Origin: a virus
DNA length: 64,000 nucleotides
Strand: one strand, 5' to 3'
IMG/VR virus record: IMGVR_UViG_3300028840_006907
Location: 288,001 to 352,000 of that record
Shown here: positions 7,611-25,480 of the stretch, in pieces
How positions within the stretch are numbered: the first letter of the stretch is position 1
Layout: every line of letters begins with the position of its first letter
Notes under the pieces: generated by a model
Told to the model about the DNA's origin: nothing
The model's input: the letters and a program-made list of their open reading frames with translations, nothing else
Databases searched by the model: none
Made by a program: the position numbers and the translations under genes

Positions 7611-7611
7611 A

Positions 7612-10280: not shown

Positions 10281-10342
10281 AAATTAGATATAAGAAGTCT
10301 CATTGAGACTATTCAATAAAATAATAAATAGGAATAAAAAAG

Positions 10343-11146: not shown

Positions 11147-11176
11147 ATTTACATATAGATATTGAAAGGAGATTGT

Positions 11177-12151: not shown

Positions 12152-12154
12152 CTT

Positions 12155-12856
12155 ATGGAATTAATAACAAAAGCAGTTATAATGGCTGGTGGAGAGGGTA
12201 CTCGGTTAAGACCTTATACAGAAATGACTCCTAAAGCAATGTTAGAGGTTAACGGTATTCCTCTCTTACGTTTAATGATAGAGAGACTTCATAGTTTTGG
12301 TATAACTCATTTCTATTTAAGTGTAAATTATCTCTCGAAAGTAATCTGTGATTATTTCGGTGATGGATCTAAATTTGGGATTAATATCACTTATATAAAA
12401 GAACCTTATTCGATGGGGACCGCAGGTTCAATTAGTATGGTTGATATTGAAGAACCTTTTTTGGTTATAAATGGAGATGTTTATACCAGTCTTGATTTTA
12501 GAGATCTCTTTGTAGAATTTAGAAGATCTAAATCAGATCTATTAATATGTTGTAGGGAGCAATTATTAAAAACAGATTATGGTGTTATTGTAAAAGAAGA
12601 TGACAGGATAACTTCCTGGGTTGAAAAACCTGAGTTTACTCATTACATAAGTTGTGGTATCTATGTATTCAAACCAGAGATTGTAAAATATATACCTAAA
12701 GAACATTTTTTTAATATGAATCATTTAGCTGAAGCGGTTATTGAAAAGAATAAAAAAGCTGGATTTTATTTAATGGATGATCTAGATATCTGGATTGATA
12801 TAGGAACTATTGAAGAATATAATAAGGTCAAGGAATTGTTAACAGTAAAAAAATAA
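12155..12856 (+). CDS. sugar-1-phosphate nucleotidyltransferase
   Basis: AVIMAGGEGTRLRPYTEMTPKAMLEV matches the GGxGTRLxPxTxxxPK NTP_transferase signature. Confidence 0.85.
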   Translation: MELITKAVIMAGGEGTRLRPYTEMTPKAMLEVNGIPLLRLMIERLHSFGITHFYLSVNYLSKVICDYFGDGSKFGINITYIKEPYSMGTAGSISMVDIEEPFLVINGDVYTSLDFRDLFVEFRRSKSDLLICCREQLLKTDYGVIVKEDDRITSWVEKPEFTHYISCGIYVFKPEIVKYIPKEHFFNMNHLAEAVIEKNKKAGFYLMDDLDIWIDIGTIEEYNKVKELLTVKK

Positions 12857-12865
12857 GAGGATAAA

Positions 12866-13759
12866 GTGAGAGTTGTATTTATTGGTTGCGTCAATTTCAG
12901 TAAAGCAATGTTGGAATATGCTTTAGAAATAGAGTGCCTTGAAATAGTGGGTATCGTGACAAAATCAGAATCCAATTTTAATACAGATTTCTGTTCTTTG
13001 GCCCCTTTAGCCCAGGAACATAATATTTCTTATCTTTTATACGATCAATTAAAATCGGAAAGTGGACTCAATAGTTGGGTTGAATTAAAATTTCCTGATG
13101 TGATCTTTTGTTTTGGTTGGTCCCATTTATTAAAAGCTGAACTTATAGAAATTCCTAAAATAGGAGTCATAGGACATCATCCTACAATGCTTCCTAAGAA
13201 TAGAGGGCGACATCCAGTAATATGGGCGTTAGCTTTAGGATTGGAGTATACTGCTTCAACTTTTTTCTTTATAGATCCTGGGGTGGATTCTGGGGATATT
13301 CTAGATCAAATCCCTGTAAATATAAATTTTGATGATGATGCTAGTATTCTCTATCAGAAGATCACAGTGACTGCAGGAAAGCAATTAAAAACATTTTCTC
13401 CTCTTTTGGAGAAAGGAGAATATATAGTTGTTAAACAAGATATGAGTAAAGCTACATGGTGGAGAAAAAGGTCAAAAGCTGATGGATATATTGATTGGCG
13501 TATGAGTTGTTTTTCCATTCATAATTTAGTCCGGGCTTTGACTTGTCCTTATGTAGGGGCTCATTGTGAATTTAACAATAGGGATATAAAGATCTGGAAA
13601 GTTAGAATAATGTATAAAGGATTAGATGATATTGAACCAGGTAAAATAATCGATTTAAATAGAAATAAAAATGAAATCTATATAAAGTGCGGGGATGGAG
13701 TTATGTGTATCTATGATCATGAATTTGATCCTCTGCCTGAGATCGGAACTTATTTATGA
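12866..13759 (+). CDS. sugar N-formyltransferase (Fmt/ArnA-N family)
   Basis: GTG start with RBS aagagg; HHPTMLPKNRGRHPVIWAL (SLLPxxRG-type) and IDPGVDSGDIL motifs; C-terminal Fmt-like domain. Confidence 0.8.
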   Translation: MRVVFIGCVNFSKAMLEYALEIECLEIVGIVTKSESNFNTDFCSLAPLAQEHNISYLLYDQLKSESGLNSWVELKFPDVIFCFGWSHLLKAELIEIPKIGVIGHHPTMLPKNRGRHPVIWALALGLEYTASTFFFIDPGVDSGDILDQIPVNINFDDDASILYQKITVTAGKQLKTFSPLLEKGEYIVVKQDMSKATWWRKRSKADGYIDWRMSCFSIHNLVRALTCPYVGAHCEFNNRDIKIWKVRIMYKGLDDIEPGKIIDLNRNKNEIYIKCGDGVMCIYDHEFDPLPEIGTYL

Positions 13760-14415
13760 AAATTATTGCCATTGCACCTCATCCTGATGATGAGACTCTG
13801 GGATGTGGTGGTACACTCTTGAAGCATCGGGATGCCTCAGATGATATTTATTTGGTTCTTGTTACTACAGCAGGTTCTGAATACAGTGAAGAGCATATCA
13901 ATAATAAATACAAAGAAATAGATAATGCCAACGAGATTTTTGAATTTAAGACTATCTTCGATTTGGGTTTCCCTGTTACTCATATTGGTTCTATAGATAT
14001 ATCAGAAATAATTGGTAAACTAATGGACACATTTAAATTAGTGGGTCCCGATATTATTTATGTTCCTTTCCCGTATGATATTCATACTGATCATCAAGTT
14101 GTTTTTGATGCGGTTTCTTCGTGTACAAAATGGTTCAGAATACCTACTTTGAAAAGAATACTAGCCTATGAAACTATATCTGAAACAGATTTTATTATTA
14201 GACCCGGTCCTTCTTTTATCCCTAATGTTTTTGTCAATATTGAAGATCACATTGATAAAAAGATAGAGGCTATGAAATGCTATGCTAGTGAAATTGCTAT
14301 GCCTCCTTTTCCTCGTAGTGAGGAGAATATCAGAGCCCTGGCAACATTAAGAGGTTCAACATCTGGTTTCAAAGCTGCGGAAGCTTTCATGTTGTTAAAG
14401 GAGATAGATGAATGA
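13756..14415 (+). CDS. PIG-L/LmbE family deacetylase
   Basis: AIAPHPDDETLGCGGTLLKH signature; HTDH downstream; ATGA coupling to upstream gene. Confidence 0.85.
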   Translation: MKIIAIAPHPDDETLGCGGTLLKHRDASDDIYLVLVTTAGSEYSEEHINNKYKEIDNANEIFEFKTIFDLGFPVTHIGSIDISEIIGKLMDTFKLVGPDIIYVPFPYDIHTDHQVVFDAVSSCTKWFRIPTLKRILAYETISETDFIIRPGPSFIPNVFVNIEDHIDKKIEAMKCYASEIAMPPFPRSEENIRALATLRGSTSGFKAAEAFMLLKEIDE

Positions 14416-15380
14416 GTAAAAAAGTTTTAGTTACTGGTGCAGGAGGATTTATAGGATCTCATTTAGTAAAACGGCTCATGGAATATGGGTATGATGTTAC
14501 AGCACTGGTAAAATATAATGCAAATGGTTCTTGGGGCTGGTTAGACACATTTCATCGTTCTGTAATCAAAGATATTAGAGTAGAGTTGGGTGATGTTCGG
14601 GATCCGGAACAAATGATGAGATATAAAAACATGGATATTATTTTCCATTTAGCTGCTTTGATAGGTATCCCTTATTCCTATGTAGCTCCTCGTTCATATG
14701 TCGATACCAATATAAACGGTACTTTAAACATGCTTCAGGTTTGTCGGGAAAATGGAGCTACTTATATTCATACATCAACTTCTGAGGTATATGGTACAGC
14801 CCTTTATGAACCTATTGATGAAAAACATCCTATCCAAACACAGAGTCCATATTCAGCTACAAAAAGTGCTGGAGATAGTTTAGCAAAGAGTTATTATCTT
14901 TCCTTCGATTTGCCCGTTATTATAGTAAGACCATTCAATACTTTTGGAACACGTCAATCTTTAAGAGCTGTTATTCCCACTATTATCAGTCAGGCATGTA
15001 AAGATGATGTTATAAAACTTGGAGATCCAAGTACCATGAGAGATTTCATTTTTGTGGATGATACTGTAGAAGGCTTTATAAAGGCCGCTGAGAGGGGAAA
15101 ATCTGGAGAGACTTATAATATAGGTTATGGCAAAAAAAGGTCAATAAGAAGTATTGTGGATGACGTAGGCAATATATTAGGTAAAGTTTTAAAAATTGAA
15201 TCGGAACCAGAGAGAATGCGACCTCCGAAGAGTGAGGTAAGAGTTCTTGTTTGTAATAATGAAAAAGCAAAAAAAGAATTGGGATGGGATATTAAATGGC
15301 CTTTTAAAAAAGGGTTGGAATATTTGATCTACGATTGGCAACGAGAAAACAAAGAAAGTAAAGATTTTTATCATGTCTAG
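14412..15380 (+). CDS. NAD-dependent nucleotide-sugar 4,6-dehydratase/decarboxylase-type SDR
   Basis: VTGAGGFIGSHL, TSTSEVYG, YSATKSAGD (YxxxK). Confidence 0.85.
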   Translation: MSKKVLVTGAGGFIGSHLVKRLMEYGYDVTALVKYNANGSWGWLDTFHRSVIKDIRVELGDVRDPEQMMRYKNMDIIFHLAALIGIPYSYVAPRSYVDTNINGTLNMLQVCRENGATYIHTSTSEVYGTALYEPIDEKHPIQTQSPYSATKSAGDSLAKSYYLSFDLPVIIVRPFNTFGTRQSLRAVIPTIISQACKDDVIKLGDPSTMRDFIFVDDTVEGFIKAAERGKSGETYNIGYGKKRSIRSIVDDVGNILGKVLKIESEPERMRPPKSEVRVLVCNNEKAKKELGWDIKWPFKKGLEYLIYDWQRENKESKDFYHV

Positions 15381-16449
15381 TATATTTTTACACATACCTC
15401 ATATAGGGGAAGAGGAAAAGGCAGAAGTAAATAAGGCTCTTAATACTGGAGAATTGACCTGTGGAAATTATTTAAATCAATTTGAAAAAGAATTAAGTGA
15501 AAGGATAAATTCTCCTGTTGTTTTATGCTCTTCTGGAACAGCAGCTTTGCAATTAGGTCTACATGCTATGGGTATAGGTCCAGGAGATGAAGTAATTGTT
15601 CCTAATATGTCTTTTGTTTCGACTATAAATTCTGTTTTATATATGGGTGCTACCCCAGTTTTGTGCGATGTAGGTGATCCTGAATACGAGCTTTCCATTG
15701 ATCCTGAAGAAATAATCGATCTCATAACTCCTCGAACTAAAGCTATAATGGTATCTCATCTTTGTGGGGGATACGGTGACATTGAAAAGATATTAGATAT
15801 AGCTAGTGCGTATAAAGTTGATGTCATTGAAGATGCTGCTCAGGCAGTAGGTTGTACTATGAATGGCAAAGCTTTGGGAACATTTGGAAAGTTTGGTGTC
15901 TATTCATTTAATGGGAATAAAATTATCACCACAGGTGGTGGAGGCACTCTTTTAACTTCAGATCGTGGAATGAGTCAGAGAGTACGAAATCTTCTTAATC
16001 AAGCGAAAGACATTTTAAATCCTTTTTCTCATATAGAGATGGGGTATAATTATAGAATCAGTAATATCCATGCTGCGATAGGTTGTGCTCAATTAAAAAA
16101 ATTAGACTCTTTTATTGATAAGAAAAAATTTATTCATGAGACCTATAAAAAGAAGTTAGACATAATAACTTATAAGGAAAAATCCAATTATTGGTTGAAT
16201 GTTTATAAAGTAAAAAAATTTAATCCTTATGAAGCTGTTTGGAATCTGGATTACAAAAGCATAGAGACTCGTCCTATTTATACCCCTTTTCATATGATGG
16301 ATTTTCTTAAAAAATATGGTGAGGATGAATACCCGGTTTCAGAGAAATTATATAACAGTCTTTTTTGTTTGCCATCTTATTTATCTCTTGATGAAGAGAT
16401 AATCGATAAAGTAGTGGATGAAATAAATAATTTGGAGAATAGTGAATGA
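15373..16449 (+). CDS. DegT/DnrJ/EryC1/StrS family sugar aminotransferase
   Basis: SGTAALQLGLHAMGIGPGDEVIVPNMSFVST and SFNGNKIITTGGGG (PLP lysine region). Confidence 0.9.
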   Translation: MSSIFLHIPHIGEEEKAEVNKALNTGELTCGNYLNQFEKELSERINSPVVLCSSGTAALQLGLHAMGIGPGDEVIVPNMSFVSTINSVLYMGATPVLCDVGDPEYELSIDPEEIIDLITPRTKAIMVSHLCGGYGDIEKILDIASAYKVDVIEDAAQAVGCTMNGKALGTFGKFGVYSFNGNKIITTGGGGTLLTSDRGMSQRVRNLLNQAKDILNPFSHIEMGYNYRISNIHAAIGCAQLKKLDSFIDKKKFIHETYKKKLDIITYKEKSNYWLNVYKVKKFNPYEAVWNLDYKSIETRPIYTPFHMMDFLKKYGEDEYPVSEKLYNSLFCLPSYLSLDEEIIDKVVDEINNLENSE

Positions 16450-17141
16450 AAAAACATATCCTTTTGATGTTTAATATGGGAAATAGTGGTGGGAAGTATT
16501 TCGAAGATATTTGTAATACTCACGAAGATGTTCAGATATGGCAAGAAGCAAATCACCTTTTAAAAGTAGATCATCTTGAGACACCAGTTCAGTTCGACAG
16601 GGTATATGCTTTTTTCATGAAACAGTATGAAGAAAATAAGAAAAAAACCATCGGATTAATAAAAGCTTTTGATCATCGGTTAATAGGATTGGCTGAAAGA
16701 ACTGGTGGGTCTATCATGCAGATGTTCAGACATCCTGTAGGTGTGGTGGGTTTTAAGACAGGCCATAAAATGGCTGAGTGTGAACAGAGAGGTTTGTTTG
16801 ACAAACTAGACACACCTGAAAAGATTTTTGAAGCTCATGTGGATTTTTATGCCTCAATATATAATTCCTATACGAAGAATGCTCATAAGTGGCCTGTTGT
16901 TAAATTAGAGGATTTAAAAAAGTCTTTACGGGAAAGAACTCCGTATTTTGAAGATGTAATGAAAAAAGCGCTGAAAGTTGACTGGCAACCGAAACATACA
17001 AAAAAAGTTATTAATATGGGAGGGCTTGAAGAGAATAGAGATCATTTTGATATTTGGAAATCATGGGAAGATTGGAAGAAAGATATTTTTCTGAAGTATT
17101 TCCAGGAAATAATGAAATTGTATATGTATGAATGGGAATGA
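16446..17141 (+). CDS. sulfotransferase-fold-like protein, paralogue A
   Basis: MFNMGNSGGKYF (P-loop-like) and MFRHPVGVV (RxP) motifs; clear paralogue of 20367-21158 (IGLIKAFDH, HVDFY, LEDL, IWKSWEDWKK). Confidence 0.4.
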   Translation: MKKHILLMFNMGNSGGKYFEDICNTHEDVQIWQEANHLLKVDHLETPVQFDRVYAFFMKQYEENKKKTIGLIKAFDHRLIGLAERTGGSIMQMFRHPVGVVGFKTGHKMAECEQRGLFDKLDTPEKIFEAHVDFYASIYNSYTKNAHKWPVVKLEDLKKSLRERTPYFEDVMKKALKVDWQPKHTKKVINMGGLEENRDHFDIWKSWEDWKKDIFLKYFQEIMKLYMYEWE

Positions 17142-17155
17142 TAGGAGGACGAAGT

Positions 17156-18151
17156 ATGAAAAATTTGGAAATCATAGCTGAGTTCGGAACTAATCATGTC
17201 GATCCTAATGGTAAAGTTCTTGAAAATATTGAGGATTTGATACATACACTAGCAGACAAAGGAGCGACTGCAGTTAAATTTCAGCTTTTTAAAGCTGATA
17301 ATTTAGTAGAAAAGAATACTGAAGTACATGGCCTTATAAAAAATTTGGAAATTGCTCTTGAAGAGCATGTCAGATTAAAAAAGATCTGCGAAGAAATAGG
17401 TTTGCGGTATCTTTGCACTCCTTTTTGCGTTGAGTCTTTGGATGCTCTTCTTAGTATAGGAGTAAAGGAAATAAAAATAGCCAGTTGTGATTGTGGTAAT
17501 TTACAATTGATGTCAGATATTGTACAACGTCATAACAAAATTCATCGAGTTATAATGGCTACAGGTATGTCAACATTGAATGAAATTGGTGTTTCCATTG
17601 ACATCCTTATTGATGGAGGATTTAATATTGATCTTTTACATTGTACAAGTGTTTACCCTACACCGATATACCGAGCTTCTCTAGACATGATAAGAGTCTT
17701 AAAAAAGAAGTGGGGTTTATTTAATATAGGATATTCGGATCATACATTGGGGACTGAAGTGGTGGGTATAGCCCGAGCTATGGGTTGTACCATTTTTGAA
17801 AAGCATGTAACTCCTGATAGAACAATGCCCGGTTTTGATCATGCTTATTCTTTTCCTATTGATGAATTTGATAAATATGTCGATGCTATCAAGAATGTCG
17901 ATCAGATAATAGGAGAAGAAAGAAAATACGTAGATAAAAAAGAAGCAGTATCTCGTGATGCCATGAAAAGAGGCATATGGTTTAAAAAAGAAGTGTTTAA
18001 AGGGCAGAAAATAACCAGAGATGATATCATTGTACGAAGACCGTTGAAAGGGGCCGTTAACCAGACTTACTATTTTTCTGTTCTTGGTAAAAAAGTAAAG
18101 AAGAATTTTAATGAGGATGATCCCGTTTTAACGGAGAATTTATATGAGTAA
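17156..18151 (+). CDS. nonulosonic acid synthase (NeuB/PseI/LegI family)
   Basis: RBS taggagg, ATG 17156; IIAEFGTNH...AVKFQLF N-terminal signature; YSDHTLG; C-terminal SAF-like segment. Confidence 0.85.
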   Translation: MKNLEIIAEFGTNHVDPNGKVLENIEDLIHTLADKGATAVKFQLFKADNLVEKNTEVHGLIKNLEIALEEHVRLKKICEEIGLRYLCTPFCVESLDALLSIGVKEIKIASCDCGNLQLMSDIVQRHNKIHRVIMATGMSTLNEIGVSIDILIDGGFNIDLLHCTSVYPTPIYRASLDMIRVLKKKWGLFNIGYSDHTLGTEVVGIARAMGCTIFEKHVTPDRTMPGFDHAYSFPIDEFDKYVDAIKNVDQIIGEERKYVDKKEAVSRDAMKRGIWFKKEVFKGQKITRDDIIVRRPLKGAVNQTYYFSVLGKKVKKNFNEDDPVLTENLYE

Positions 18152-19052
18152 AATAGGAATTCGATGTGATTGTGGACCGGTAATGGGCATGGGTCATATA
18201 TCTAGGCAGAAACTTATTTATGAAGAACTCATGAAATTGGACCACGAAGTTTCTTTTTTTGTAAAAAGAGAACGGAACATAGTTAAATCAATGGGACTTC
18301 CACTTTCAAATAAGATTTTAATGGATACAATGGATACTTTGATAATTGATTTAGTGGAAGGTTTTGAGGATTATGATTTTCCTCGAACTAAAATAGTTTT
18401 TTATGATGGTCCGGAAATGATACATTGTGATGCTGATATCATTTTTGCTTTAAATTATAAACAACAGAAATCCTGGTATAGAGGAACGGGTTATTATGTT
18501 GGGCTAGATTATATCCCGATGGATCCCAGCATTTCTAAAATAGAGAAAGAATTTGGTAATTTAGAAAAAATATTAATTATGACAAGTGGAATCGATCCTT
18601 GGGATATGCCAGGACAAATAGTTAGAGTTATTAAGGATCTGGGTTATGACATCACAGTTAAATTATCTAATGCTTATCCAAAAGATTGGATCAGTAAACT
18701 TGAGAAACATGCTGAGATAATTTTAAATGTGGATAGTGTTGCTTCATTATATGAAGAATATGATTTAATGATATGTACTGCAGGAAATGTGTTGTTCGAG
18801 GCTGCTGTAGCTGGTTTACCCTGTATAAGTTTTTCGACGGGTAAAGTTCAGGAGGGCCATGGGGCGTTTATGAGTGACAAAGGTTTTTCAGTTCATCTTG
18901 GAGGCTTTTGGAATAATACTGCTGAAGTTGGTTATTTGTCTGATGCTATAAAATTTTTAGCTGATAGATCGGATAGAGAACAAAGATCTGAGATAGGTCG
19001 TTCTATTTGTGATGGTAAAGGATTAGAAAGGATAATAAATATTATAGGGTAA
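18144..19052 (+). CDS. PseG-like nucleotide-sugar hydrolase / GT28-type protein
   Basis: IGIRCDCGPVMGMGHISRQ resembles the PseG GxGHxxR start; C-terminal TAGNVLFEAAVAGLPCI resembles the MurG/GT28 C-domain. Confidence 0.55.
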   Translation: MSKIGIRCDCGPVMGMGHISRQKLIYEELMKLDHEVSFFVKRERNIVKSMGLPLSNKILMDTMDTLIIDLVEGFEDYDFPRTKIVFYDGPEMIHCDADIIFALNYKQQKSWYRGTGYYVGLDYIPMDPSISKIEKEFGNLEKILIMTSGIDPWDMPGQIVRVIKDLGYDITVKLSNAYPKDWISKLEKHAEIILNVDSVASLYEEYDLMICTAGNVLFEAAVAGLPCISFSTGKVQEGHGAFMSDKGFSVHLGGFWNNTAEVGYLSDAIKFLADRSDREQRSEIGRSICDGKGLERIINIIG

Positions 19053-19055
19053 AAT

Positions 19056-19718
19056 ATGAAAACTATCGCATTTACATTGCCAGTAAGAAAGAACAGTCAA
19101 AGAGTAAAAAATAAAATGTTAAGACCTTTTGCAGGGAGAAGTTTATTTGAGATCTATTTGGATAAAATCGAATGTTTCAAACATTTGGTTTATGTTGTTG
19201 CCTATGAAGAAGAATTTATTAACATAGCTAAAAAAAGGGGATTTAAATATCTTCATAGAAGTGAAGAGTCTGCTAATGGGGAAACTTCTCCAGTTATCCA
19301 TAGTTATTTAAATGAGATGAAAGAAGATTTCATTTTTATGGCAACTGCGTGTTGTCCTTTGATGAAGACAGAGACTTTGAAAAATATCATGGTAGAGCTA
19401 TGTTCAAAACTCCATGATCCTAATTATCACGGTTTAATAACTGTAAAAAGATGTGGTAATGCTATTTGGAATTCAGAGAAGAAAGTAATGAATGATGATG
19501 TTCGAACTTTCAATACTAAGTTAAGAAAACCTTTTTACATCGAGACTAGTTCCGTTTTTGTTTTTAGACGTGAAAGATTTCTTAAACTAGGTGCATATTG
19601 GGATTTTGGTGATAAAGATCCCGATCTTTATGAAATTAATTCAATTGAAGCTACTGATATTGATACAATGGATGATTTCGAAGTAGCTGAAATACTTTAC
19701 AAAAGAAGGTTGTCATGA
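19056..19718 (+). CDS. CMP-nonulosonate cytidylyltransferase family (NeuA/PseF-like)
   Basis: LPVRKNSQRVKNKMLRPFAGRSL resembles the R-x-S-x-R-x-x-x-KN...G-x-(S/P)-L signature; ~220 aa. Confidence 0.6.
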   Translation: MKTIAFTLPVRKNSQRVKNKMLRPFAGRSLFEIYLDKIECFKHLVYVVAYEEEFINIAKKRGFKYLHRSEESANGETSPVIHSYLNEMKEDFIFMATACCPLMKTETLKNIMVELCSKLHDPNYHGLITVKRCGNAIWNSEKKVMNDDVRTFNTKLRKPFYIETSSVFVFRRERFLKLGAYWDFGDKDPDLYEINSIEATDIDTMDDFEVAEILYKRRLS

Positions 19719-20374
19719 AAAATTATGGCTATGCTGATATGAGTGAAAAAGAAAAATTATCTAAAGAACAAGTATTAGAATTTTGGAAAAATCCTATAAA
19801 CGATAATACTAATAAAAATGAGAACAATGATCCTGAGCATTATTTGAGTGGGGAAAAACGTAGCCGATATCTCGTTGAATTAATTAAAAGGCATTTACAT
19901 AAAGAAGCAAAAATATTAGAGATTGGTTGTAATGTCGGGAGGAATTTGCATTATCTATATGAAACAGGTTATAACAATTTAAATGGGATAGAAATTAATG
20001 ATAATGCTGTTCAAGTGATGCATAAAAATTATCCCGAATTATATGGAAGTGTAGGAATTTATAATTGTCCGGTTGAATCTATTATTACATCTTTTTCCGA
20101 TGAAGCCTATGACTTGGTCTTTACAATGGCTGTTTTAGAGCACATTCATTATGAGAGTGATTTCATTTTCTCTGAGATAGCTCGGGTAGCCAAAAGATGT
20201 ATAATTACAATTGAAGATGAAAAAACTACCTGGAGTAACAGACATTTTCCTCGTAATTATAAGGAGGTGTTTGAGAAGATCGGGAATTGGGTACAGATTT
20301 ATGATATGAATTGTGGTGGGATTAATATACTTGATGATCGATTTTGGGTAAGGGTATTTAAAAAGAATGTCTAA
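19715..20374 (+). CDS. class I SAM-dependent methyltransferase
   Basis: ILEIGCNVGRNL (motif I) and DLVFTMAVLEHI. Confidence 0.75.
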   Translation: MKNYGYADMSEKEKLSKEQVLEFWKNPINDNTNKNENNDPEHYLSGEKRSRYLVELIKRHLHKEAKILEIGCNVGRNLHYLYETGYNNLNGIEINDNAVQVMHKNYPELYGSVGIYNCPVESIITSFSDEAYDLVFTMAVLEHIHYESDFIFSEIARVAKRCIITIEDEKTTWSNRHFPRNYKEVFEKIGNWVQIYDMNCGGINILDDRFWVRVFKKNV

Positions 20375-21158
20375 ACGAATAGTGTTAGTCAGAAATATGG
20401 GAAACAGTGGCGGTGCCTGGTTAATGAAGGTATTTAATATGCATGAAAACATATTAATGTTTCAGGAATTAAACCAGATACTGAGGTTAAGATATGATTA
20501 TTCGGATATAAATAAGAAGAATCTAAATTACCCTCATGTTGACTATGATGTAAAAATAGCTCAACGGAGTCGTGATCTTAAAGGATTTTTATTTAATAGT
20601 AGAACTCAGTGTCATATAGCAACTAGTTTTCTTTTATATCAATATGATATTAGAAAAGAAGATGCGATTGGGTTAATAAAATGTTTTGATCATGAATCTA
20701 TAAGAGAATGTAGAGTAAAATGTCCTTCTGTTAAAGTTGTACAAGTTTTAAGAAATCCTATTGGTATAATAGATTTTTATATGAGTCAGGAAAATTTAAG
20801 GCAAATAGCCCATCATGATCCATATGAAATATCTTTTAAAAAACATGTGGATTTCTTTCATAATAAATTTATAGATTTTTGGGAAAATAATGAAAAAAAA
20901 GGTGAGAAAATTATACGACTAGAAGATTTGAATATATCATTGAAAGATGGAAATCCTTTCTTAAAAGACACTATGGAAGATTTATTTGAAGTTAATTTCT
21001 CAAATGAATTTATTGAAAAAATCAAACAAAATTTAGGTTATGGGAATGAAGGTAACCAGAATAAAGAGATATGGCAAAACTGGGAAGGATGGAAAAAAGA
21101 ATATTTCAAGAAATATTTCGAAAATCTAATGATGAATCTTGGCTATGAATTGAGGTGA
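20367..21158 (+). CDS. sulfotransferase-fold-like protein, paralogue B
   Basis: LVRNMGNSGGAWL and VLRNPIGIIDFY; paralogue of 16446-17141. Confidence 0.4.
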   Translation: MSKRIVLVRNMGNSGGAWLMKVFNMHENILMFQELNQILRLRYDYSDINKKNLNYPHVDYDVKIAQRSRDLKGFLFNSRTQCHIATSFLLYQYDIRKEDAIGLIKCFDHESIRECRVKCPSVKVVQVLRNPIGIIDFYMSQENLRQIAHHDPYEISFKKHVDFFHNKFIDFWENNEKKGEKIIRLEDLNISLKDGNPFLKDTMEDLFEVNFSNEFIEKIKQNLGYGNEGNQNKEIWQNWEGWKKEYFKKYFENLMMNLGYELR

Positions 21159-21161
21159 TAA

Positions 21162-21737
21162 ATGAATTTATTTGAATCTGCGTACTATACTGAAGAGGAT
21201 CTGAGAAAAGGCGGTTTTAAAAGTGTCGGTAAAAATGTTCAGATTGATAAAAGTTGCACGATAATAGGCTTAGATAAAATCACTCTAGGAGATAATGTTC
21301 GAATCGATGGTTACTGTTGTATTATTGCCACAAAAGAGGAAGTGATTTTCGGTTCTTATATTCATATAGGTTCGTTTTGTCATCTCTGTGGAACTGCAGG
21401 TCTTATAATGAAAGATTTTTCAGGTTTGTCACAAGGAGTTCGAATTTACTCCTCTTCTGATGATTATTCAGGAAAGTTTTTAACTAATCCAACTGTTCCC
21501 GATAAATACACAGGTATAATAAGAGAACCAGTTATTATAGGTAAACATGTTATAATCGGGGCTAATACTGTTATTCTTCCAGGAGTTGTTATAGGTGATG
21601 GGTCAGCTATTGGTGCCATGTCCCTTGTAACAAAAGACGTAGATAAAAATAGTGTCTATGCAGGTTGTCCAGCGAAATTTATAAAAACACGTTCAAAAAG
21701 AATATTTGATTTAGAGAAGAGGTTATTAAATGAATAA
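21162..21737 (+). CDS. left-handed beta-helix (hexapeptide repeat) acetyltransferase
   Basis: Hexapeptide periodicity, e.g. GKHVIIGANTVILPGVVIGDGSAIGAMSLVTKDV. Confidence 0.85.
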   Translation: MNLFESAYYTEEDLRKGGFKSVGKNVQIDKSCTIIGLDKITLGDNVRIDGYCCIIATKEEVIFGSYIHIGSFCHLCGTAGLIMKDFSGLSQGVRIYSSSDDYSGKFLTNPTVPDKYTGIIREPVIIGKHVIIGANTVILPGVVIGDGSAIGAMSLVTKDVDKNSVYAGCPAKFIKTRSKRIFDLEKRLLNE

Positions 21738-22443
21738 ATCAATTTTCATATGTTCAGGAGGTCGATGTGGTACACATTGGGTTCGGCCTATTCTTGCTCA
21801 GCTTTTAGATTTACAAACTGGGTTTGATTGGAAAGGATATAATCCAAATAAAATTCCCTTTAAAACAGAACCTGGAGCTATTTGGAAAATAAAGATGGTA
21901 GAAAAGAGAGAGCCAGGAGGAAGGATTTATTCAGGGCATATGCCAATTACAGAACTTCTACCTATTATCAGTTTAGTAAATATAATAATTCTTATAAGAG
22001 ATCCTAGAGATATGTGTGTTTCGGCTGCATATTATACTCCAGAAAGAAGAGTATTAACTCAAGAAGAATTTGAATCTAAATTTAATAATTTATTAATACA
22101 AGGAAGCCCGAATCCTGATTTTCATGAATCTTATATAGAAAGTAAGAATAAAATACCTCATTTTTTATTAAAATATGAAGATATGATTCATGATGATTAT
22201 GGCTCAATAGTTAAATTTTTAAATAATTCAGGTTATAAATTTGAAGAAGAAAAATTAAAATATGTACTTGATAAAAACTCATTCAAGAATTTATCAGGTG
22301 GACGAGAAGCCGGTGAGGAGGATAATACCGCTTTTTATAGAAAAGGTATTGTGGGTGATTGGGTAAATTATCTCTCTAATGGTTTACTTGAACAATATAC
22401 CGATAGGCATAAAACTTTGTTGGAAGAATGGGGGTATATGTAA
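21730..22443 (+). CDS. sulfotransferase (Sulfotransfer_1-like)
   Basis: 5'-PSB-like GGRCGTHW, 3'-PB-like IRDPRDMCVSAAYY, and FYRKGIVGDWVNY (RKGxxGDW). Confidence 0.8.
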   Translation: MNKSIFICSGGRCGTHWVRPILAQLLDLQTGFDWKGYNPNKIPFKTEPGAIWKIKMVEKREPGGRIYSGHMPITELLPIISLVNIIILIRDPRDMCVSAAYYTPERRVLTQEEFESKFNNLLIQGSPNPDFHESYIESKNKIPHFLLKYEDMIHDDYGSIVKFLNNSGYKFEEEKLKYVLDKNSFKNLSGGREAGEEDNTAFYRKGIVGDWVNYLSNGLLEQYTDRHKTLLEEWGYM

Positions 22444-22444
22444 T

Positions 22445-23116
22445 ATGGAAGATTATTTTGAACAAATGGTAACAGTTTTTAAAAAGTACTTTAAAGAGTA
22501 TTATCGTAATGTATTCACAAATCAATCAGTGGAAACCTGTACAGGTATTTATAATCTTTGTAAAAAAGAAAATCCAGATCAAGTAGTGGAAATGGGAACC
22601 AATCATGGGGCTTCTACTCTTTCTATAGTAAAAGCACTGACTGATTTAGGGAAAGATTTGTCTATTATTACTTCAATTGATTTAGACCACGAGAAATGGA
22701 AGGCAACATTTAATATACAAAAAGAATTGATTAAAAAGTATGATTTAAATTTAGGAAAAGTAAAATTAATAACTCAAGATTTTAATTCAGTAGATCCTGT
22801 AGAAATAATTGACCCTGAAAAGAAAGTATTTATTTTTTATGATATGCATGATCATCGAGGCCCATGGTCACAGAGACTACTTGATTTATGGGTACCTTTA
22901 GTTAAGAATGGTGTCTTCTCTATTCATGATGTAACTCCTGTAAGTGAATCCTTTGAAATAGTTCAGGATAAAATTTCCCCTCGAACAAAGATACAGTATA
23001 AGAGTGGGCAGTATTTTGCAGGTTTCAATGAATGTTTTCGAATAATAAAATGGGCAAATACAAATAACATAAATATAGAGATATTTCCAGGAGGAGTATA
23101 TTTCAGAAATGGCTAA
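22445..23116 (+). CDS. putative class I methyltransferase-like protein
   Basis: ATG 22445 follows upstream stop (track start 22379 overlaps); VVEMGTNHGASTL glycine-rich loop; FIFYDMHDH. Confidence 0.45.
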   Translation: MEDYFEQMVTVFKKYFKEYYRNVFTNQSVETCTGIYNLCKKENPDQVVEMGTNHGASTLSIVKALTDLGKDLSIITSIDLDHEKWKATFNIQKELIKKYDLNLGKVKLITQDFNSVDPVEIIDPEKKVFIFYDMHDHRGPWSQRLLDLWVPLVKNGVFSIHDVTPVSESFEIVQDKISPRTKIQYKSGQYFAGFNECFRIIKWANTNNINIEIFPGGVYFRNG

Positions 23117-23795
23117 CATTTTTATTGGAAAAAATATGTCAAATATAAAAAATATTCCTGGTTTAAATAAAATAACAAAGATACATGATGTGGCTGATTA
23201 TGTGAGATTAGCTGATTTTGTCTATAAAACAATTTCCCATTCTATGGATAGTGGGATTGATTTAGATTATTCTGTTAATCAATTGTATTGGCAATTTGTG
23301 AATAAAAAGAGATTTGGATGGTGCTATATGCATGCTCTGTATTATCATCTTATAGTACAAGAATATGGTCGTGAATCTTTTGTTTATGATTATGGCTTAC
23401 CAGCGCCACAATTAACTCATAGTGTTGTTGTAGTAACTTTACGTGATGATAAGTATTTAATTGATCCTTATTTTAATCGTTATTATGTAACAGAAAAAGG
23501 GAATCCGTATACATTTCCTGACTTATTGGCTATGATAAAAACTGATCCAACAAAAATTTATAGTAAATATGGACCTGGTTTGAAAGAAGTTAAACAGGGA
23601 GATAAATATATAGAAACTTCTCCTGAACAATTTGAAAAAGGAGTATTGGAATCGTGGCGAGTAAATCAGAATTATGATAAAATAATGATGGAAAAATTTA
23701 ATAGCACAAATGCATTATTATTAATGCATTGTAAAGTACAAAAAGCTAAAGTATGTAAAAAAATAGATGGGACAAAGTATTTTGACTTTTTCTAA
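23109..23795 (+). CDS. hypothetical protein
   Basis: 228-aa ORF coupled to upstream gene (ATG overlaps stop); GWCYMHALYY could be a Cys-His site, but the fold was not recognised. Confidence 0.4.
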   Translation: MANIFIGKNMSNIKNIPGLNKITKIHDVADYVRLADFVYKTISHSMDSGIDLDYSVNQLYWQFVNKKRFGWCYMHALYYHLIVQEYGRESFVYDYGLPAPQLTHSVVVVTLRDDKYLIDPYFNRYYVTEKGNPYTFPDLLAMIKTDPTKIYSKYGPGLKEVKQGDKYIETSPEQFEKGVLESWRVNQNYDKIMMEKFNSTNALLLMHCKVQKAKVCKKIDGTKYFDFF

Positions 23796-24570
23796 TGTTA
23801 TATCCTTTATCAGTGCATTTAAAAAGTTTAAACCTCCTTATGGTATGATACAGCATTCTGCTATGTATTCATGGAATGCTAATAATATTGAAGTATTTGT
23901 TCCAGATAATGAGGTTGGAGTTAAAGATGCTTGTCAGAGTTATCCTAATATTAAATTAATCCCCGATGTTAAACGGGCTCGGGAAATGGGCTTTTCAAAT
24001 CAGTCTCCTATGGTAAAAGATCTGATTGCAAAAGCTCTACCTTTAATCAATACTCCGATGGTAGCTTTAATTAATTCAGACATTATAATTCAACCTGATT
24101 TTATAGAAAGAATAGAAAAAATACTGAAAGAATACGGTTTTGATATTTATATGGTGGGAACTCGATTTGATATTAAATTGGATATTCATATAAGTTCGGA
24201 AGAGACATATAAACAGGTATTGAGTTCAGAACGAAAAAGTTATGATGGCAGTACTTCTTCAGATATATTTATAGCTTCTAAATTTACCTGGAGGAAGATA
24301 GTTCATGAAATGCCTGATTTTATTCTAGGTCGGTATGGGTGGGATAATTGGTTACATATGATTGCAGAACTTAAAGGATATCGTAAATTTAATTGTACAG
24401 ATGCTTTGACTATTCTTCATTGTGAGCATGATCATAAGCATATAGTTCTTCAGGAAAAGGCTGAAAAACAAAGTGCTCCAAGTTCACAGCATAATTTAAA
24501 GTTATGGAATGAAGTAAAAAATGTTTATGGGACGACCAGGATAAATGCATGGCCAAAAATTGAAATATAA
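23767..24570 (+). CDS. hypothetical protein, possible glycosyltransferase
   Basis: ALINSDIIIQPDF acidic motif; start uncertain (23767 or ATG 23845). Confidence 0.35.
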   Translation: MGQSILTFSNVISFISAFKKFKPPYGMIQHSAMYSWNANNIEVFVPDNEVGVKDACQSYPNIKLIPDVKRAREMGFSNQSPMVKDLIAKALPLINTPMVALINSDIIIQPDFIERIEKILKEYGFDIYMVGTRFDIKLDIHISSEETYKQVLSSERKSYDGSTSSDIFIASKFTWRKIVHEMPDFILGRYGWDNWLHMIAELKGYRKFNCTDALTILHCEHDHKHIVLQEKAEKQSAPSSQHNLKLWNEVKNVYGTTRINAWPKIEI

Positions 24571-24598
24571 TAGGGGTAAAGAAGTTTCTCTACCCCTA
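24571..24598 (+). terminator. stem-loop after gene 23767-24570 (no U-tract)
   Basis: TAGGGGTA (24571-24578) pairs with TACCCCTA (24591-24598) around a 12-nt loop; no following T-run, so terminator function is uncertain. Confidence 0.3.
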
Positions 24599-24661
24599 CA
24601 TGCACATTTTAACCACAATCCCATCTTATGGCTAAAAATATAATAAAAGGATGATACAAGA

Positions 24662-25480
24662 ATGAACCTTCTTCAGAGAGTAAAAAAATATTGGGATGAT
24701 AGACCCTGTAATATACGCCATTCAAAGGAACCCGTTGGAACCAGAAATTATTTCAATGAGGTTGAATATAAAAAATATAAAGTTGAACCGCATATATCAG
24801 GTTTCGCTGATTTTAATAAATGGAAGGATAAAAAGGTCCTTGAGATAGGCTGTGGGCTGGGCACTGAGACTATAAATTTTGCTAGAGCTGGTGCTAGGGT
24901 TGTCGCTGTGGATATGTCTGAGAAATCTTTGGAGCTGGCTAAGAAACGAGCGGAAGTTTTTGGCTTGTCCGATAAGATTACATTTTATCAGGGAAATGCT
25001 GAAGAACTTGATAAATTTATCCCAGCTCAGAAATTTGATCTTATCTGGTCTTTTGGTGTTATTCATCATACCCCGAATCCTGAGAACGTTATTGAATGTA
25101 TCAAGAAGTACCTGTCTCCAAGCAGTGAATTACGAATGATGGTTTATAATAAATTTAGTTGGAAAGTATTCTGGATCCTTTTTAAGTACGGGAAGTTTAA
25201 GTTTTGGGATATTGATAAATTCATAGCTCAAAATTCAGAAGCTCAGACCGGGTGCCCAATCACCTACACTTATACAAATAAATCAGTTCAAAAATTACTA
25301 AAAGGGTTTGTAATCGATAATATTAAAATTGAGCATATTTTTCCTTATAAAATTCGTGAATATAAGGAGAATAAATTCAAATTTATCTGGTATTTTAGAT
25401 ACCTGCCCAAATGGTTTTTTCATTGGTTAGAAAAGAGAATCGGTTGGCATATGTGCATAATCGCCAGATGGAGAATTTAG
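24662..25480 (+). CDS. class I SAM-dependent methyltransferase
   Basis: VLEIGCGLGTETINFARAGARVVAVDMSEKSLELAKKR and FDLIWSFGVIHH. Confidence 0.8.
   Translation: MNLLQRVKKYWDDRPCNIRHSKEPVGTRNYFNEVEYKKYKVEPHISGFADFNKWKDKKVLEIGCGLGTETINFARAGARVVAVDMSEKSLELAKKRAEVFGLSDKITFYQGNAEELDKFIPAQKFDLIWSFGVIHHTPNPENVIECIKKYLSPSSELRMMVYNKFSWKVFWILFKYGKFKFWDIDKFIAQNSEAQTGCPITYTYTNKSVQKLLKGFVIDNIKIEHIFPYKIREYKENKFKFIWYFRYLPKWFFHWLEKRIGWHMCIIARWRI

What the first reader, a model, noticed from the sequence alone, without database searches (positions are those of the whole stretch)
16446..22443. Multiple sulfotransferase-like genes (plus a rhodanese) with no PAPS-synthesis genes in view
One canonical sulfotransferase lies at 21730-22443 (GTHW, RDPRDxxVS, RKGxxGDW). 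A family-2-like one lies at 49032-49610. Two mutually paralogous proteins with a P-loop-like NMGNSGG and an R(H/N)P motif lie at 16446-17141 and 20367-21158, interleaved with the nonulosonate genes. A GlpE-like rhodanese is at 47967-48536. This points to a sulfated glycan product, which is rare for phage-encoded pathways. It would rely on host PAPS, because no cysC/cysDN is seen.
Basis: partly seen in the sequence, partly recalled or inferred. Interest (0 to 1): 0.55.

Follow-up and report, generated by a model that had tools for sequence, protein, structure and literature searches.

The report
Sulfotransferases in a phage sugar operon
A very large uncultured phage-like genome carries an operon for a sialic-acid-like nine-carbon sugar that includes one ordinary sulfotransferase and two copies of a rare, unannotated sulfotransferase-fold family with an altered active-site loop, so the encoded sugar coat is probably sulfated.

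Summary
ORF 21730-22443 is a canonical Sulfotransfer_1 enzyme with every catalytic and PAPS-binding motif intact, also in 39-49%-identical orthologues. ORF 49032-49610 is a compact Sulfotransfer_2/phrog_3347 enzyme with both PAPS motifs.

The family is tiny (60 representatives among 1.84 billion proteins). It recurs in nonulosonate clusters, often directly after the CMP-sugar synthetase. One distant member overlaps an APS kinase gene.

No PAPS-synthesis gene lies in the window or in 10 kb either side; the remaining ~385 kb of the contig was not seen. The rhodanese has no evident link to sulfation.

Phage sulfotransferases are already catalogued. The new elements are the variant family and its tie to a legionaminic-type pathway. 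Sulfation itself is inferred, not shown.

The parts
8931..10280 (+). UDP-glucose/GDP-mannose 6-dehydrogenase, a source of uronic acid; first gene of the co-directional operon
   Evidence: Pfam UDPG_MGDP_dh N, central and C domains, E 9e-45. Syntenic in L002, L003 and L016.
10343..11146 (+). Conserved 267-aa protein of unknown function
   Evidence: No Pfam or NCBIfam hit. Present at the same place in L002, L003 and L005.
11162..12151 (+). SDR sugar epimerase/reductase
   Evidence: Pfam Epimerase E 1.2e-40. NCBIfam best hit is GDP-fucose synthase-like, far below its cut-off.
12155..12856 (+). Sugar-1-phosphate nucleotidylyltransferase (makes the NDP-hexosamine precursor)
   Evidence: Pfam NTP_transferase E 5e-37. 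NCBIfam hits to guanylyl/uridylyl transferases, all below cut-off.
12866..13759 (+). Sugar N-formyltransferase (ArnA/Fmt-like, N plus C domains)
   Evidence: Pfam Formyl_trans_N and Formyl_trans_C. NCBIfam formyltransferase E 2e-45.
13756..14415 (+). PIG-L family de-N-acetylase
   Evidence: Pfam PIG-L E 9.5e-21.
14412..15380 (+). LegB-like NDP-HexNAc 4,6-dehydratase
   Evidence: NCBIfam TIGR04180 LegB, E 4.5e-117, 390 bits against a cut-off of 475.
15373..16449 (+). LegC-family PLP aminotransferase
   Evidence: Pfam DegT_DnrJ_EryC1 E 1e-92. NCBIfam TIGR04181 LegC family, 304 bits against a cut-off of 420.
16446..17141 (+). Paralogue A: sulfotransferase-fold protein of a new small family, with loop GNSGGK and motif RHP. 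Start and stop overlap the neighbouring genes.
17132..18151 (+). NeuB-type nonulosonate synthase
   Evidence: Pfam NeuB E 2.8e-58 plus a SAF domain. NCBIfam NeuB 244 bits and PseI 179 bits, both below cut-off.
18144..19052 (+). PseG-like GT-B protein (NDP-sugar hydrolase candidate)
   Evidence: NCBIfam PseG E 2e-17, 64 bits against a cut-off of 154. Weak Pfam Glyco_trans_1_4 hit.
19056..19718 (+). CMP-nonulosonate synthetase (cytidylyltransferase)
   Evidence: Pfam CTP_transf_3 E 5e-10. NCBIfam PseF E 1e-12, below cut-off.
19715..20374 (+). SAM methyltransferase, similar to the pseudaminic-acid-associated methylase
   Evidence: Pfam Methyltransf_11. NCBIfam TIGR03587 E 1e-11, below cut-off.
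20367..21158 (+). Paralogue B: same family as A, with loop GNSGGA, motif RNP and a roughly 35-aa insertion after strand 2. The true start is 20367, not the Met11 used by database gene callers.
21162..21737 (+). Hexapeptide-repeat (left-handed beta-helix) acyltransferase
   Evidence: Pfam Hexapep E 3e-13. NCBIfam hits to WbbJ, NeuD/PglB and similar, below cut-off.
21730..22443 (+). Canonical PAPS-type sulfotransferase (Sulfotransfer_1)
   Evidence: Pfam E 1.1e-22. PDB best hit SULT2A1 at E 3e-11, with PSB Arg12, His70, Arg90/Ser98 and RKG..GDW aligned. All are invariant in orthologues.
22445..23116 (+). Methyltransf_24 / CmcI-like O-methyltransferase
   Evidence: Pfam E 8e-8. Start taken from the JGI gene call.
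23109..23795 (+). Conserved protein with weak similarity to arylamine N-acetyltransferase
   Evidence: Pfam Acetyltransf_2 E 1.5e-4, just below cut-off. The same faint hit appears in the L003 orthologue.
23767..24570 (+). Conserved protein with very weak GT2-like similarity
   Evidence: Pfam Glyco_tranf_2_3 E 0.006. Syntenic in L002.
24662..25480 (+). SAM methyltransferase, last gene of the operon
   Evidence: Pfam Methyltransf_31 E 3e-23.
49032..49610 (+). Compact Sulfotransfer_2 / phrog_3347-type sulfotransferase, outside the operon; substrate unknown
   Evidence: Pfam E 1.7e-9. phrog_3347 over full length at E 1e-7. Motifs PKTGSRS and RNPWAMLVS. tblastn hits to the Stenotrophomonas phage DLP_6 'sulfotransferase' and to huge phage LR756508.1.
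47967..48536 (+). Rhodanese-domain protein, named in the finding; no evidence that it belongs to the sulfation system
   Evidence: Pfam Rhodanese E 8.4e-10. Cys in the CYLGHTS loop. GlpE model 19.8 bits against a cut-off of 102.

Best explanation
The window is part of a huge (389-470 kb) uncultured phage-like genome. Its first ~40 kb form a glycan-building island.

Inside the island, a translationally coupled operon (8931-25480, + strand) makes a legionaminic-acid-type 5,7-diamino nonulosonate:
- a nucleotidyltransferase, a LegB-like dehydratase and a LegC-like aminotransferase;
- a NeuB-type synthase, a PseG-like hydrolase and a CMP-transferase.

The operon also carries tailoring enzymes: a de-N-acetylase, a formyltransferase, acyltransferases, three to four methyltransferases and three sulfotransferase-fold enzymes.

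The canonical enzyme (21730-22443) is a fully equipped PAPS-dependent sulfotransferase. Paralogues A and B belong to a small, unannotated branch of the same superfamily, structurally closest to tyrosylprotein sulfotransferases. They keep the Glu base, the Lys and the 3'-phosphate Arg. They have Asn instead of the catalytic Lys/Arg in the 5'-phosphosulfate loop.

Most likely they too use PAPS. They would sulfate the nonulosonate or its CMP-activated form, or a neighbouring sugar of the finished glycan. PAPS would come from the host or from phage genes outside the part seen.

Shown: gene content, folds, motif conservation, synteny. Inferred: donor, acceptor, regiochemistry, the target of the glycan (virion or host surface) and the source of PAPS.
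For: Canonical enzyme:
- Pfam E 1.1e-22.
- Aligned to SULT2A1 with Arg12, His70, Arg90, Ser98 and RKG..GDW in register.
- These residues are invariant in orthologues that are only 39-49% identical.

Paralogue fold:
- Confident models.
- The viral fold library returns phage and giant-virus 'sulfotransferase' proteins first.

Paralogue sequence:
- hhalign of the family against the canonical enzyme gives E 1.4e-4. The PSB loop, strand-3 Lys/His, RxP and LED/YED motifs all align in register.
- The weak HMM alignment to TPST1 puts E34, K105 and R129 on the counterparts of TPST2 Glu99, Lys158 and Arg183.
- Arg78, Glu99 and Lys158 are the TPST2 catalytic residues whose Ala mutants lose activity (PMC10951654). 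Arg183 as the 3'-PB arginine is from memory.
- Conservation across 58 representatives: E34 in 53, K105 in 52, R129 in 56, E186 in 58.

Gene context:
- Distant member P0078 overlaps an APS kinase gene beside a Wzy polymerase gene.
- Members sit directly after the CMP-transferase in L002, L012/L013 and L016/L017.
- L016 is an independently arranged nonulosonate cluster at 54% GC. It also holds UDP-Glc DH, Sulfotransfer_1, a formyltransferase and PIG-L.
- Copy number varies from two to three per locus, which fits tailoring enzymes.

Precedent: the Halorubrum sp. [quoted passage not shown]

Phage-like origin:
- Tad3, E 5e-33.
- phrog_3758 virion structural protein.
- Tail and tail-fibre-like similarities.
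- Very large ORFs without family hits on the flanks.
Against: - Both paralogues have Asn at the position of the catalytic Lys/Arg, and both Thr of the PSB loop are replaced. Family-wide that position is His 21, Asn 16, Arg 7.
- The 3'-PB Ser and the RKG motif are not conserved.
- Ala mutants of the equivalent Arg in TPST2 lose most activity. An Asn enzyme could therefore be slow, inactive or use another donor.
- No residue-level structural superposition or ligand modelling could be done.
- Sequence links to known sulfotransferases are weak: PDB E 0.4-1.2, HH probability 52%, and Pfam hits at E ~1e-3 in only 3 of 58 members.
- A Leg/Pse-type sugar has only two free hydroxyls (C4, C8; established chemistry). 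The operon holds three sulfotransferase-fold enzymes and three to four methyltransferases, so not all can act on it.
- No PAPS-synthesis gene was seen.
- No capsid, portal or terminase gene was seen in the window, so phage identity is not proven.
Confidence: 0.62

Rival explanations
1. Only the canonical Sulfotransfer_1 enzyme (and perhaps the distant ST2-type enzyme) sulfates anything. Paralogues A and B are catalytically impaired sulfotransferase-fold proteins. They would act as substrate-binding, scaffolding or specificity subunits, for example partnered with the canonical enzyme or with each other.
For: - Asn replaces the catalytic Lys/Arg, and the Thr-Thr of the PSB loop and the 3'-PB Ser are lost.
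- The equivalent Arg78Ala mutant of TPST2 is strongly impaired.
- Family members nearly always occur together with a Sulfotransfer_1 gene and in two or three copies per locus.
Against: - GNSGG, Glu34, Lys105 and Arg129 are invariant across 22 orthologues of both clades and nearly so across 58 representatives. That is the pattern of a working active site.
- Seven representatives keep Arg at the loop position, so the family grades into canonical chemistry.
- A distant member pairs with APS kinase and no Sulfotransfer_1 gene is visible, although those contigs are only 3-5 kb.
Confidence: 0.18
2. The family has kept the sulfotransferase fold but switched donor. It would use another nucleoside-5'-phospho-X compound, such as the CMP-nonulosonate made by the gene immediately upstream. 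It would then be a nonulosonate transferase or another group-transfer enzyme, not a sulfotransferase.
For: - Members lie directly after, and overlap, the CMP-transferase gene in three independent arrangements.
- The residues that contact the sulfate-bridging oxygen (Lys/Arg) and the 3'-phosphate (Ser, RKG) have degenerated.
- No clear nonulosonate transferase is identifiable inside the operon.
Against: - The 3'-phosphate-binding Arg is kept in 56 of 58 representatives.
- Every sulfotransferase among the fold matches uses PAPS, to my knowledge, including the lyase-like retinol dehydratase and the CurM/OLS domains.
- P0078 is coupled to APS kinase.
- The island encodes many conventional glycosyltransferases that could transfer the sugar.
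Confidence: 0.07
3. The paralogues are P-loop-type small-molecule kinases (sugar or nucleotide phosphotransferases). The modification would then be phosphate, which has the same nominal +80 Da mass as sulfate.
For: - The Halorubrum glycan mass data could not tell sulfate from phosphate.
Against: - There is no Walker A GxxxxGK[ST] motif. The loop is G-N-S-G-G-[A/K]-[W/Y].
- No Walker B or lid signature was recognised.
- All top fold hits are sulfotransferases and align about 190 residues, against about 150 for kinases.
- The RxP and LED motifs align with sulfotransferase motifs.
Confidence: 0.04
4. The contig is not a phage but a fragment of a small cellular genome or another mobile element. 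The cluster would then be an ordinary cell-surface polysaccharide or S-layer glycan locus.
For: - No capsid, portal or terminase gene lies in the window.
- The contig is absent from the IMG/VR copy searched and from GenBank phages.
- The window contains thymidylate kinase and many sugar genes typical of cells.
Against: - Tad3 anti-Thoeris protein.
- phrog_3758 virion structural protein.
- Tail-protein and tail-fibre-like matches.
- A Mom-like/HNH fusion.
- Runs of very large ORFs without any family.
- No tRNA or rRNA in 64 kb.
- Not found in 185,579 GTDB species genomes.
- A comparable NeuB-like plus sulfotransferase region lies in the 484-kb uncultured phage LR756508.1.
Confidence: 0.1

Closest known systems
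Tyrosylprotein sulfotransferases TPST1/TPST2 (PDB 5wri, 3ap3)
   Different: About 10% identity and no significant sequence match (E 0.4). The catalytic Arg78 equivalent is Asn, the Thr-Thr of the loop is Gly-x, and the 3'-PB Ser is lost. The gene context points to sugar acceptors, not protein tyrosine. Not a member.
Cytosolic sulfotransferases (Pfam Sulfotransfer_1; SULT2A1, SULT1 family)
   Same: ORF 21730-22443 is a bona fide member. It has the PSB loop, the catalytic His, RDPRDxxVS and RKGxxGDW.
   Different: Arg replaces Lys in the PSB loop, and the protein is shorter (237 aa). It is encoded in a phage-like nonulosonate operon. tblastn finds no match in 50,697 GenBank phage records.
Natural-product and glycolipid sulfotransferases (CurM/OLS ST domains, StaL, mycobacterial Stf0/Stf1/Stf9, NodH)
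   Different: As far as I recall, all of these keep a basic residue in the PSB loop; this was not tested here. There is no significant sequence similarity.
Halorubrum sp. PV6 / HRPV-1 N-glycan pathway (5-N-formyl-legionaminic acid plus sulfated glucuronic acid)
   Same: The ingredient list matches this operon: a legionaminic-type pathway, a formyltransferase, a uronic-acid source and sulfation (PMC6137143).
   Different: There the pathway belongs to the host and the virus only borrows the glycan. Here it appears to be encoded by the virus-like genome itself, at 32% GC. No homology between the two sets of genes was tested.
Phage sulfotransferases already catalogued (phrog_3347; Stenotrophomonas phage DLP_6 'sulfotransferase'; huge phage LR756508.1)
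   Same: ORF 49032-49610 matches phrog_3347 over its full length and matches both phage records. LR756508.1 has this type of gene about 10 kb from a NeuB-like gene, next to dehydratase/epimerase and GT10-like genes.
   Different: None of these phages carries the A/B family. None has been characterised biochemically, to my knowledge.

Membership tests
PAPS-dependent sulfotransferase superfamily (paralogues A and B) | Single alpha/beta domain with a parallel sheet and a strand-loop-helix at the nucleotide site | tested here: met
PAPS-dependent sulfotransferase superfamily (paralogues A and B) | 5'-phosphosulfate-binding loop with a catalytic Lys or Arg followed by S/T-G-T/S-T/S | tested here: not met
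   The loop is G-N-S-G-G-(A/K), with Asn at the Lys/Arg position in all 22 close homologues. Family-wide the position is His 21, Asn 16, Arg 7. Register confirmed against TPST1 and the canonical enzyme.
PAPS-dependent sulfotransferase superfamily (paralogues A and B) | 3'-phosphate-binding motif: Arg after strand 4, and Ser eight residues later | tested here: inconclusive
   Arg129 (Arg95 in A) is kept in 56 of 58 and aligned to the Arg of TPST1 VRDGRASVHS and of the canonical enzyme. The Ser position is Phe, Gly or another residue.
PAPS-dependent sulfotransferase superfamily (paralogues A and B) | Catalytic base (His in SULTs, Glu in TPSTs) and transition-state Lys | tested here: inconclusive
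   Glu34 (53/58) and Lys105 (52/58) align with the counterparts of TPST2 Glu99 and Lys158. The alignment comes from a non-significant HMM hit, and no structural superposition could be inspected.
PAPS-dependent sulfotransferase superfamily (paralogues A and B) | Binds PAPS and transfers sulfonate | not testable with these tools
   Only indirect evidence: a distant member overlaps an APS kinase gene.
Pfam Sulfotransfer_1 (ORF 21730-22443) | Score above the gathering threshold, plus the PSB basic residue, catalytic His, 3'-PB Arg/Ser and RKGxxGDW | tested here: met
   81 bits against a cut-off of 22. Arg12, His70, Arg90, Ser98 and R204-K-G..G-D-W align to SULT2A1 and are invariant in orthologues.
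Pfam Sulfotransfer_2 / phrog_3347 (ORF 49032-49610) | Profile match plus the PKxGxT(S) and RxPxxRxxS-type motifs | tested here: met
   Pfam 38.6 bits against a cut-off of 22, N-terminal 77 residues only. phrog_3347 matches residues 2-188 at E 1e-7. PKTGSRS and RNPWAMLVS are present. No PDB sequence match.
Tyrosylprotein sulfotransferase family | Significant sequence similarity and the Arg78/Glu99/Lys158 triad | tested here: not met
   E 0.4 against TPST1. The Arg is replaced by Asn. This is a structural neighbour only.
P-loop NMP/sugar kinases | Walker A GxxxxGK[ST] | tested here: not met
GlpE thiosulfate sulfurtransferase (ORF 47967-48536) | NCBIfam equivalog score; single rhodanese domain of about 108 aa | tested here: not met
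   19.8 bits against a cut-off of 102. The protein is 189 aa, with a 75-aa N-terminal extension. The generic rhodanese domain and Cys are present.
Legionaminic acid pathway (LegB, LegC, LegI, LegF) | Equivalog-level scores for each enzyme | tested here: inconclusive
   LegB 390/475 bits, LegC 304/420 bits, NeuB 244/400 bits, PseF 48/206 bits. The hydrolase resembles PseG rather than LegG. The stereochemistry of the product cannot be assigned.

The most novel reading that the evidence does not exclude
The A/B family is a sulfotransferase-fold lineage that has changed chemistry. Having lost the catalytic Lys/Arg and the 3'-phosphate Ser, and being welded to the CMP-nonulosonate synthetase gene, it might no longer use PAPS. 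It would instead use the CMP-activated nine-carbon sugar (or another nucleoside-5'-phospho donor). That would make it a previously unknown fold class of nonulosonate transferase encoded by a huge phage.

A milder novel reading is that A and B are the first regiospecific O- or N-sulfotransferases for legionaminic/pseudaminic-type sugars, giving a sulfated bacterial-type sialic acid analogue on a virion. I put that reading at about 0.3.
Probability: 0.07. Interest if true: 0.85.

Novelty: new variant of a known kind. Interest (0 to 1): 0.5.

Why it matters
Sulfated sialic acids are known from animals. I found no report of a sulfated legionaminic- or pseudaminic-type sugar, or of a virus that encodes its own pathway for one, in the literature searched.

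If the prediction holds, three things follow.
- It adds a new negatively charged sugar to microbial and viral glycobiology.
- It gives an entry point to how huge phages decorate virions or remodel host surfaces.
- It defines a small enzyme family that tests how far the sulfotransferase active site can drift (Asn or His in place of the 'essential' Lys/Arg) and still work.

Practically, the family is invisible to Pfam, NCBIfam and PHROGs. Such genes are therefore currently annotated as hypothetical, and the database gene call for paralogue B (P0001) starts at Met11 and so loses the first strand.

Tried and rejected
Searches that found nothing:
- DNA searches of the operon and a neighbouring region against 50,697 GenBank phages gave no match.
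- Pfam, NCBIfam and PHROG scans of both paralogues gave no hit.
- A profile of the close family (A1) against PDB sequences gave nothing, even at E 10.
- Pattern scans for the family found nothing in IMG/VR, JGI metagenome contigs or GTDB genomes. The same holds for an exact 34-mer of the window. The A2 alignment was too diverse to scan with.
- The third protein search, with A2, added almost nothing because of its word index.
- tblastn of paralogue B and of the canonical enzyme against phages gave no match.
- The afdb50 fold library was unavailable.
- Literature searches for phage-encoded sulfated nonulosonates returned nothing relevant.

Ideas considered and rejected:
- Paralogue A as the missing LegH/PseH N-acyltransferase of the core pathway, because of its position between the aminotransferase and the synthase. 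It is absent from that position in the otherwise syntenic loci L003-L005.
- A functional link between the rhodanese and sulfation: the chemistry differs, the gene is about 25 kb away, and structural-type genes lie between.
- A hidden third family member in the window: none by HMM.
- Recent horizontal acquisition of the island: its GC of 0.30-0.36 matches the rest of the window.

Full report
**1. What the window is**

The 64-kb window has 29-40% GC, no tRNA, and long blocks of co-directional, often overlapping ORFs. Exact look-up places it on a JGI metagenome contig of 388,651 bp (3300017963, Ga0180437_10000019). A 469,617-bp version exists in other sources.

It is absent from every other collection searched:
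- 50,697 GenBank phage records;
- the IMG/VR copy, the JGI contig collection and 185,579 GTDB species genomes.

Several features point to a huge phage:
- a Tad3 anti-Thoeris protein at 50788-51252, E 5e-33;
- a phrog_3758 virion structural protein at 46054-46431;
- a Mom-like/HNH fusion;
- weak tail-protein and tail-fibre-like matches for the 592-aa and 1228-aa ORFs;
- further ORFs of 1158, 741 and more than 1305 aa just downstream.

No capsid, portal or terminase gene was seen. I rate 'phage' at about 0.85-0.9.

**2. The observation**

- **ORF 21730-22443.** It matches Pfam Sulfotransfer_1 at E 1.1e-22. Its best solved relative is SULT2A1 at E 3e-11. GGRCGTHW aligns with the 5'-phosphosulfate loop, YSGHMPI with the catalytic His, and RDPRDMCVS with the 3'-phosphate motif. 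RKGIVGDW aligns with the C-terminal nucleotide motif. In orthologues only 39-49% identical, all these residues are invariant. The only change is Arg for Lys in the loop, as in many bacterial enzymes (my knowledge).
- **ORF 49032-49610.** It passes the Sulfotransfer_2 threshold on its N-terminal third. It matches phrog_3347 'Galactose-3-O-sulfotransferase' end to end. It shows PKTGSRS and RNPWAMLVS.
- **ORF 47967-48536.** It has a rhodanese domain with its Cys but scores far below the GlpE model.
- **PAPS synthesis.** I scanned the window ORFs of 145 aa or more against Pfam. No APS kinase, ATP sulfurylase or CysD/N appeared. None is among the precomputed Pfam hits for 10 kb on either side. That covers roughly 84 kb of 389-470 kb.

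**3. The two paralogues**

*Sequence and rarity.* They are 29% identical (E 2e-34) and have no Pfam, NCBIfam or PHROG match. Only about 22 close homologues exist among 5.8 billion clustered proteins. A full HMMER scan of 1.84 billion representatives found 60 at E 1e-3 or better.

*Active site.* A 58-sequence alignment (A2) gives the family signature:
- strand 1, then G-[H/N/R]-[S/G/C]-G-G-x-W;
- N-x-H-P;
- Glu34 at the end of strand 2;
- G-x-I-Lys105 at the end of strand 3;
- Arg129-[N/H]-Pro after strand 4;
- [R/K]-L-Glu186-D-L, then W236..W239 and Y260.

Profile-profile comparison with the canonical enzyme of this operon gives E 1.4e-4 (probability 52%). The loop, the strand-3 Lys/His, RxP and LED/YED all align in register.

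The A2 profile finds no significant PDB sequence. Even so, five of its eight weak hits are sulfotransferases. Its alignment to TPST1 pairs the motifs as follows:

| Family motif | TPST1 sequence | TPST2 residue |
|---|---|---|
| G-h-S-G-G | P-R-S-G-T-T | Arg78 (family has H/N/R) |
| HP | HPD | - |
| Glu34 | second Glu of CGEE | Glu99 |
| Lys105 | LCNKDPF | Lys158 |
| Arg129 | VRDGRASVHS | Arg183 (from memory) |

Arg78, Glu99 and Lys158 are the TPST2 residues whose Ala mutants lose activity (PMC10951654).

The family thus keeps a TPST-like Glu/Lys pair and the 3'-phosphate Arg. Three things are missing:
- the catalytic Lys/Arg, which is Asn in both window copies and in all 22 close homologues, and family-wide His 21, Asn 16, Arg 7;
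- both loop threonines;
- the 3'-PB Ser.

This is a real departure from the textbook motif. It is the main reason activity remains an inference.

**4. Genomic context**

The operon 8931-25480 encodes, in order:
1. UDP-glucose dehydrogenase
2. a conserved unknown protein
3. an SDR epimerase
4. a sugar-1-P nucleotidyltransferase
5. a formyltransferase
6. a PIG-L deacetylase
7. a LegB-like dehydratase (390 bits)
8. a LegC-family aminotransferase (304 bits)
9. paralogue A
10. a NeuB-type synthase
11. a PseG-like protein
12. a CMP-transferase
13. a methylase
14. paralogue B
15. a hexapeptide acyltransferase
16. the canonical sulfotransferase
17. three further tailoring or unknown genes
18. a final methyltransferase

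All scores are below the equivalog cut-offs. The product is a legionaminic/pseudaminic-type nonulosonate of unassigned stereochemistry.

The same cluster recurs on other metagenomic contigs (L002-L005).
- Paralogue A is missing from its slot in L003-L005. Those loci instead carry two tandem B-type copies, and L003 has a third copy after the Sulfotransfer_1 gene. Copy number and position vary while the core pathway does not, which marks tailoring enzymes. This rules out A as the missing core N-acyltransferase.
- A distant, Arg-type member (P0051) lies directly after the CMP-transferase in a differently ordered nonulosonate cluster of 54% GC. That cluster also has UDP-Glc DH, Sulfotransfer_1, a formyltransferase, PIG-L and a GNAT.
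- P0042 also follows a CMP-transferase.
- P0034 is fused to a methyltransferase in a sugar cluster.
- P0078, which retains a more canonical SGT loop and the 3'-PB Ser, overlaps an APS kinase gene next to a Wzy polymerase gene.

These independent contexts tie the family to glycan tailoring, to nonulosonates in particular, and at least once to PAPS supply.

**5. Mechanism proposed**

Shown by homology: the operon builds and CMP-activates a 5,7-diamino nonulosonate.

Inferred:
[quoted passage not shown] Such a sugar has only the C4 and C8 hydroxyls free (established chemistry). Three sulfotransferase-fold enzymes and three to four methyltransferases cannot all act on it. Some must act on other residues, for example the uronic acid implied by UDP-Glc dehydrogenase.

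A precedent is the N-glycan of Halorubrum sp. PV6 and its virus HRPV-1. [quoted passage not shown] There, however, the host supplies the pathway.

The island around the operon (about 700-39,760) holds many glycosyltransferases and methyltransferases that could assemble the glycan. Whether the target is the virion or the host surface is unknown.

**6. Comparison and novelty**

Phage sulfotransferases are not new as a category.
- PHROGs has phrog_3347.
- BFVD lists many.
- Stenotrophomonas phage DLP_6 has an annotated one.
- The 484-kb uncultured phage LR756508.1 has an ST2-type gene about 10 kb from a NeuB-like gene, beside dehydratase/epimerase and GT10-like genes.

Three things are new.
- A small, unannotated sulfotransferase-fold family with a non-canonical loop.
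- Its repeated coupling to CMP-nonulosonate synthetase genes.
- A virus-like genome that seems to encode the whole pathway for a formylated, methylated and probably sulfated nonulosonate. NeuB matched only three of the 50,697 phage-collection records.

I file the canonical enzyme as a member of Sulfotransfer_1. I file the A/B family as a new variant within the sulfotransferase superfamily, and as a member of no named family.

**7. Verdict**

My probabilities:
- the operon yields a sulfated glycan: about 0.75;
- A and B are themselves active PAPS-dependent sulfotransferases: about 0.6;
- their acceptor is the nonulosonate: about 0.4.

Reliance on host PAPS is untested beyond about 84 kb. The rhodanese should be dropped from the story.

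Noticed in passing
window 27859-30038 (- strand): A split thiamine-diphosphate enzyme (E1_dh/DXP_synthase_N-like, 208 aa, and Transket_pyr-like, 174 aa) flanks a radical SAM protein (355 aa) inside the glycan island. This could indicate two-carbon branching or other unusual carbon chemistry on a sugar.
   Followed up: no
window 50788-51252 (+): Strong match to Tad3, a type I Thoeris inhibitor (Pfam PF25185, E 5e-33). This is an anti-defence gene that supports a viral origin.
   Followed up: no
window 53409-55916 (-): An 835-aa fusion of HNH/homing-endonuclease-like and D5-like regions with a Mom-like DNA-modification domain (PHROG hits; Pfam DUF7487 plus Mom).
   Followed up: no
window 4336-7320 (+) and 34711-36765 (-): Multi-domain glycan enzymes. 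One is a 994-aa GT2 + GT1/GT4 + methyltransferase fusion. The other is a 684-aa methyltransferase + GT2 fusion. A similar 693-aa GT2-methyltransferase-TPR protein lies just upstream of the window (L015).
   Followed up: no
window 33287-34090 (-): A GT10 (fucosyltransferase-type) C-terminal domain, E 1.7e-9. A homologue sits next to the ST2-type gene in huge phage LR756508.1 (L018 19753-20607).
   Followed up: partly
L003 1-364 (ENA ERZ4576380 NODE_15): The UDP-glucose dehydrogenase orthologue in this related contig is 640 aa and carries a weak intein-splicing Pfam hit. The window copy is 449 aa.
   Followed up: no
window 20367-20399; protein P0001: The database gene call for paralogue B (P0001) starts at Met11 (MGNSGG...) and so cuts off the conserved first beta-strand; homologue P0008 likewise begins at MGNSGG. 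Homologue alignment supports the ATG at 20367, which overlaps the upstream methyltransferase by 8 nt.
   Followed up: yes
L018 (LR756508.1 295000-344000): An unannotated 484-kb uncultured phage carries an ST2-type sulfotransferase, a GT10-like gene, two SDR dehydratase/epimerase genes and a NeuB-like gene within about 11 kb. It has no member of the A/B family.
   Followed up: partly
L009 4835-6262 (JGI 3300020190): A 475-aa protein fuses an A/B-family domain to a Methyltransf_9 domain. It lies in a cluster with several FkbM-type and other methyltransferases and UDP-Glc dehydrogenase.
   Followed up: no
window 7546-8247 (+): A thymidylate kinase (Pfam E 2e-42) sits between glycosyltransferase genes and the sugar operon.
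   Followed up: no
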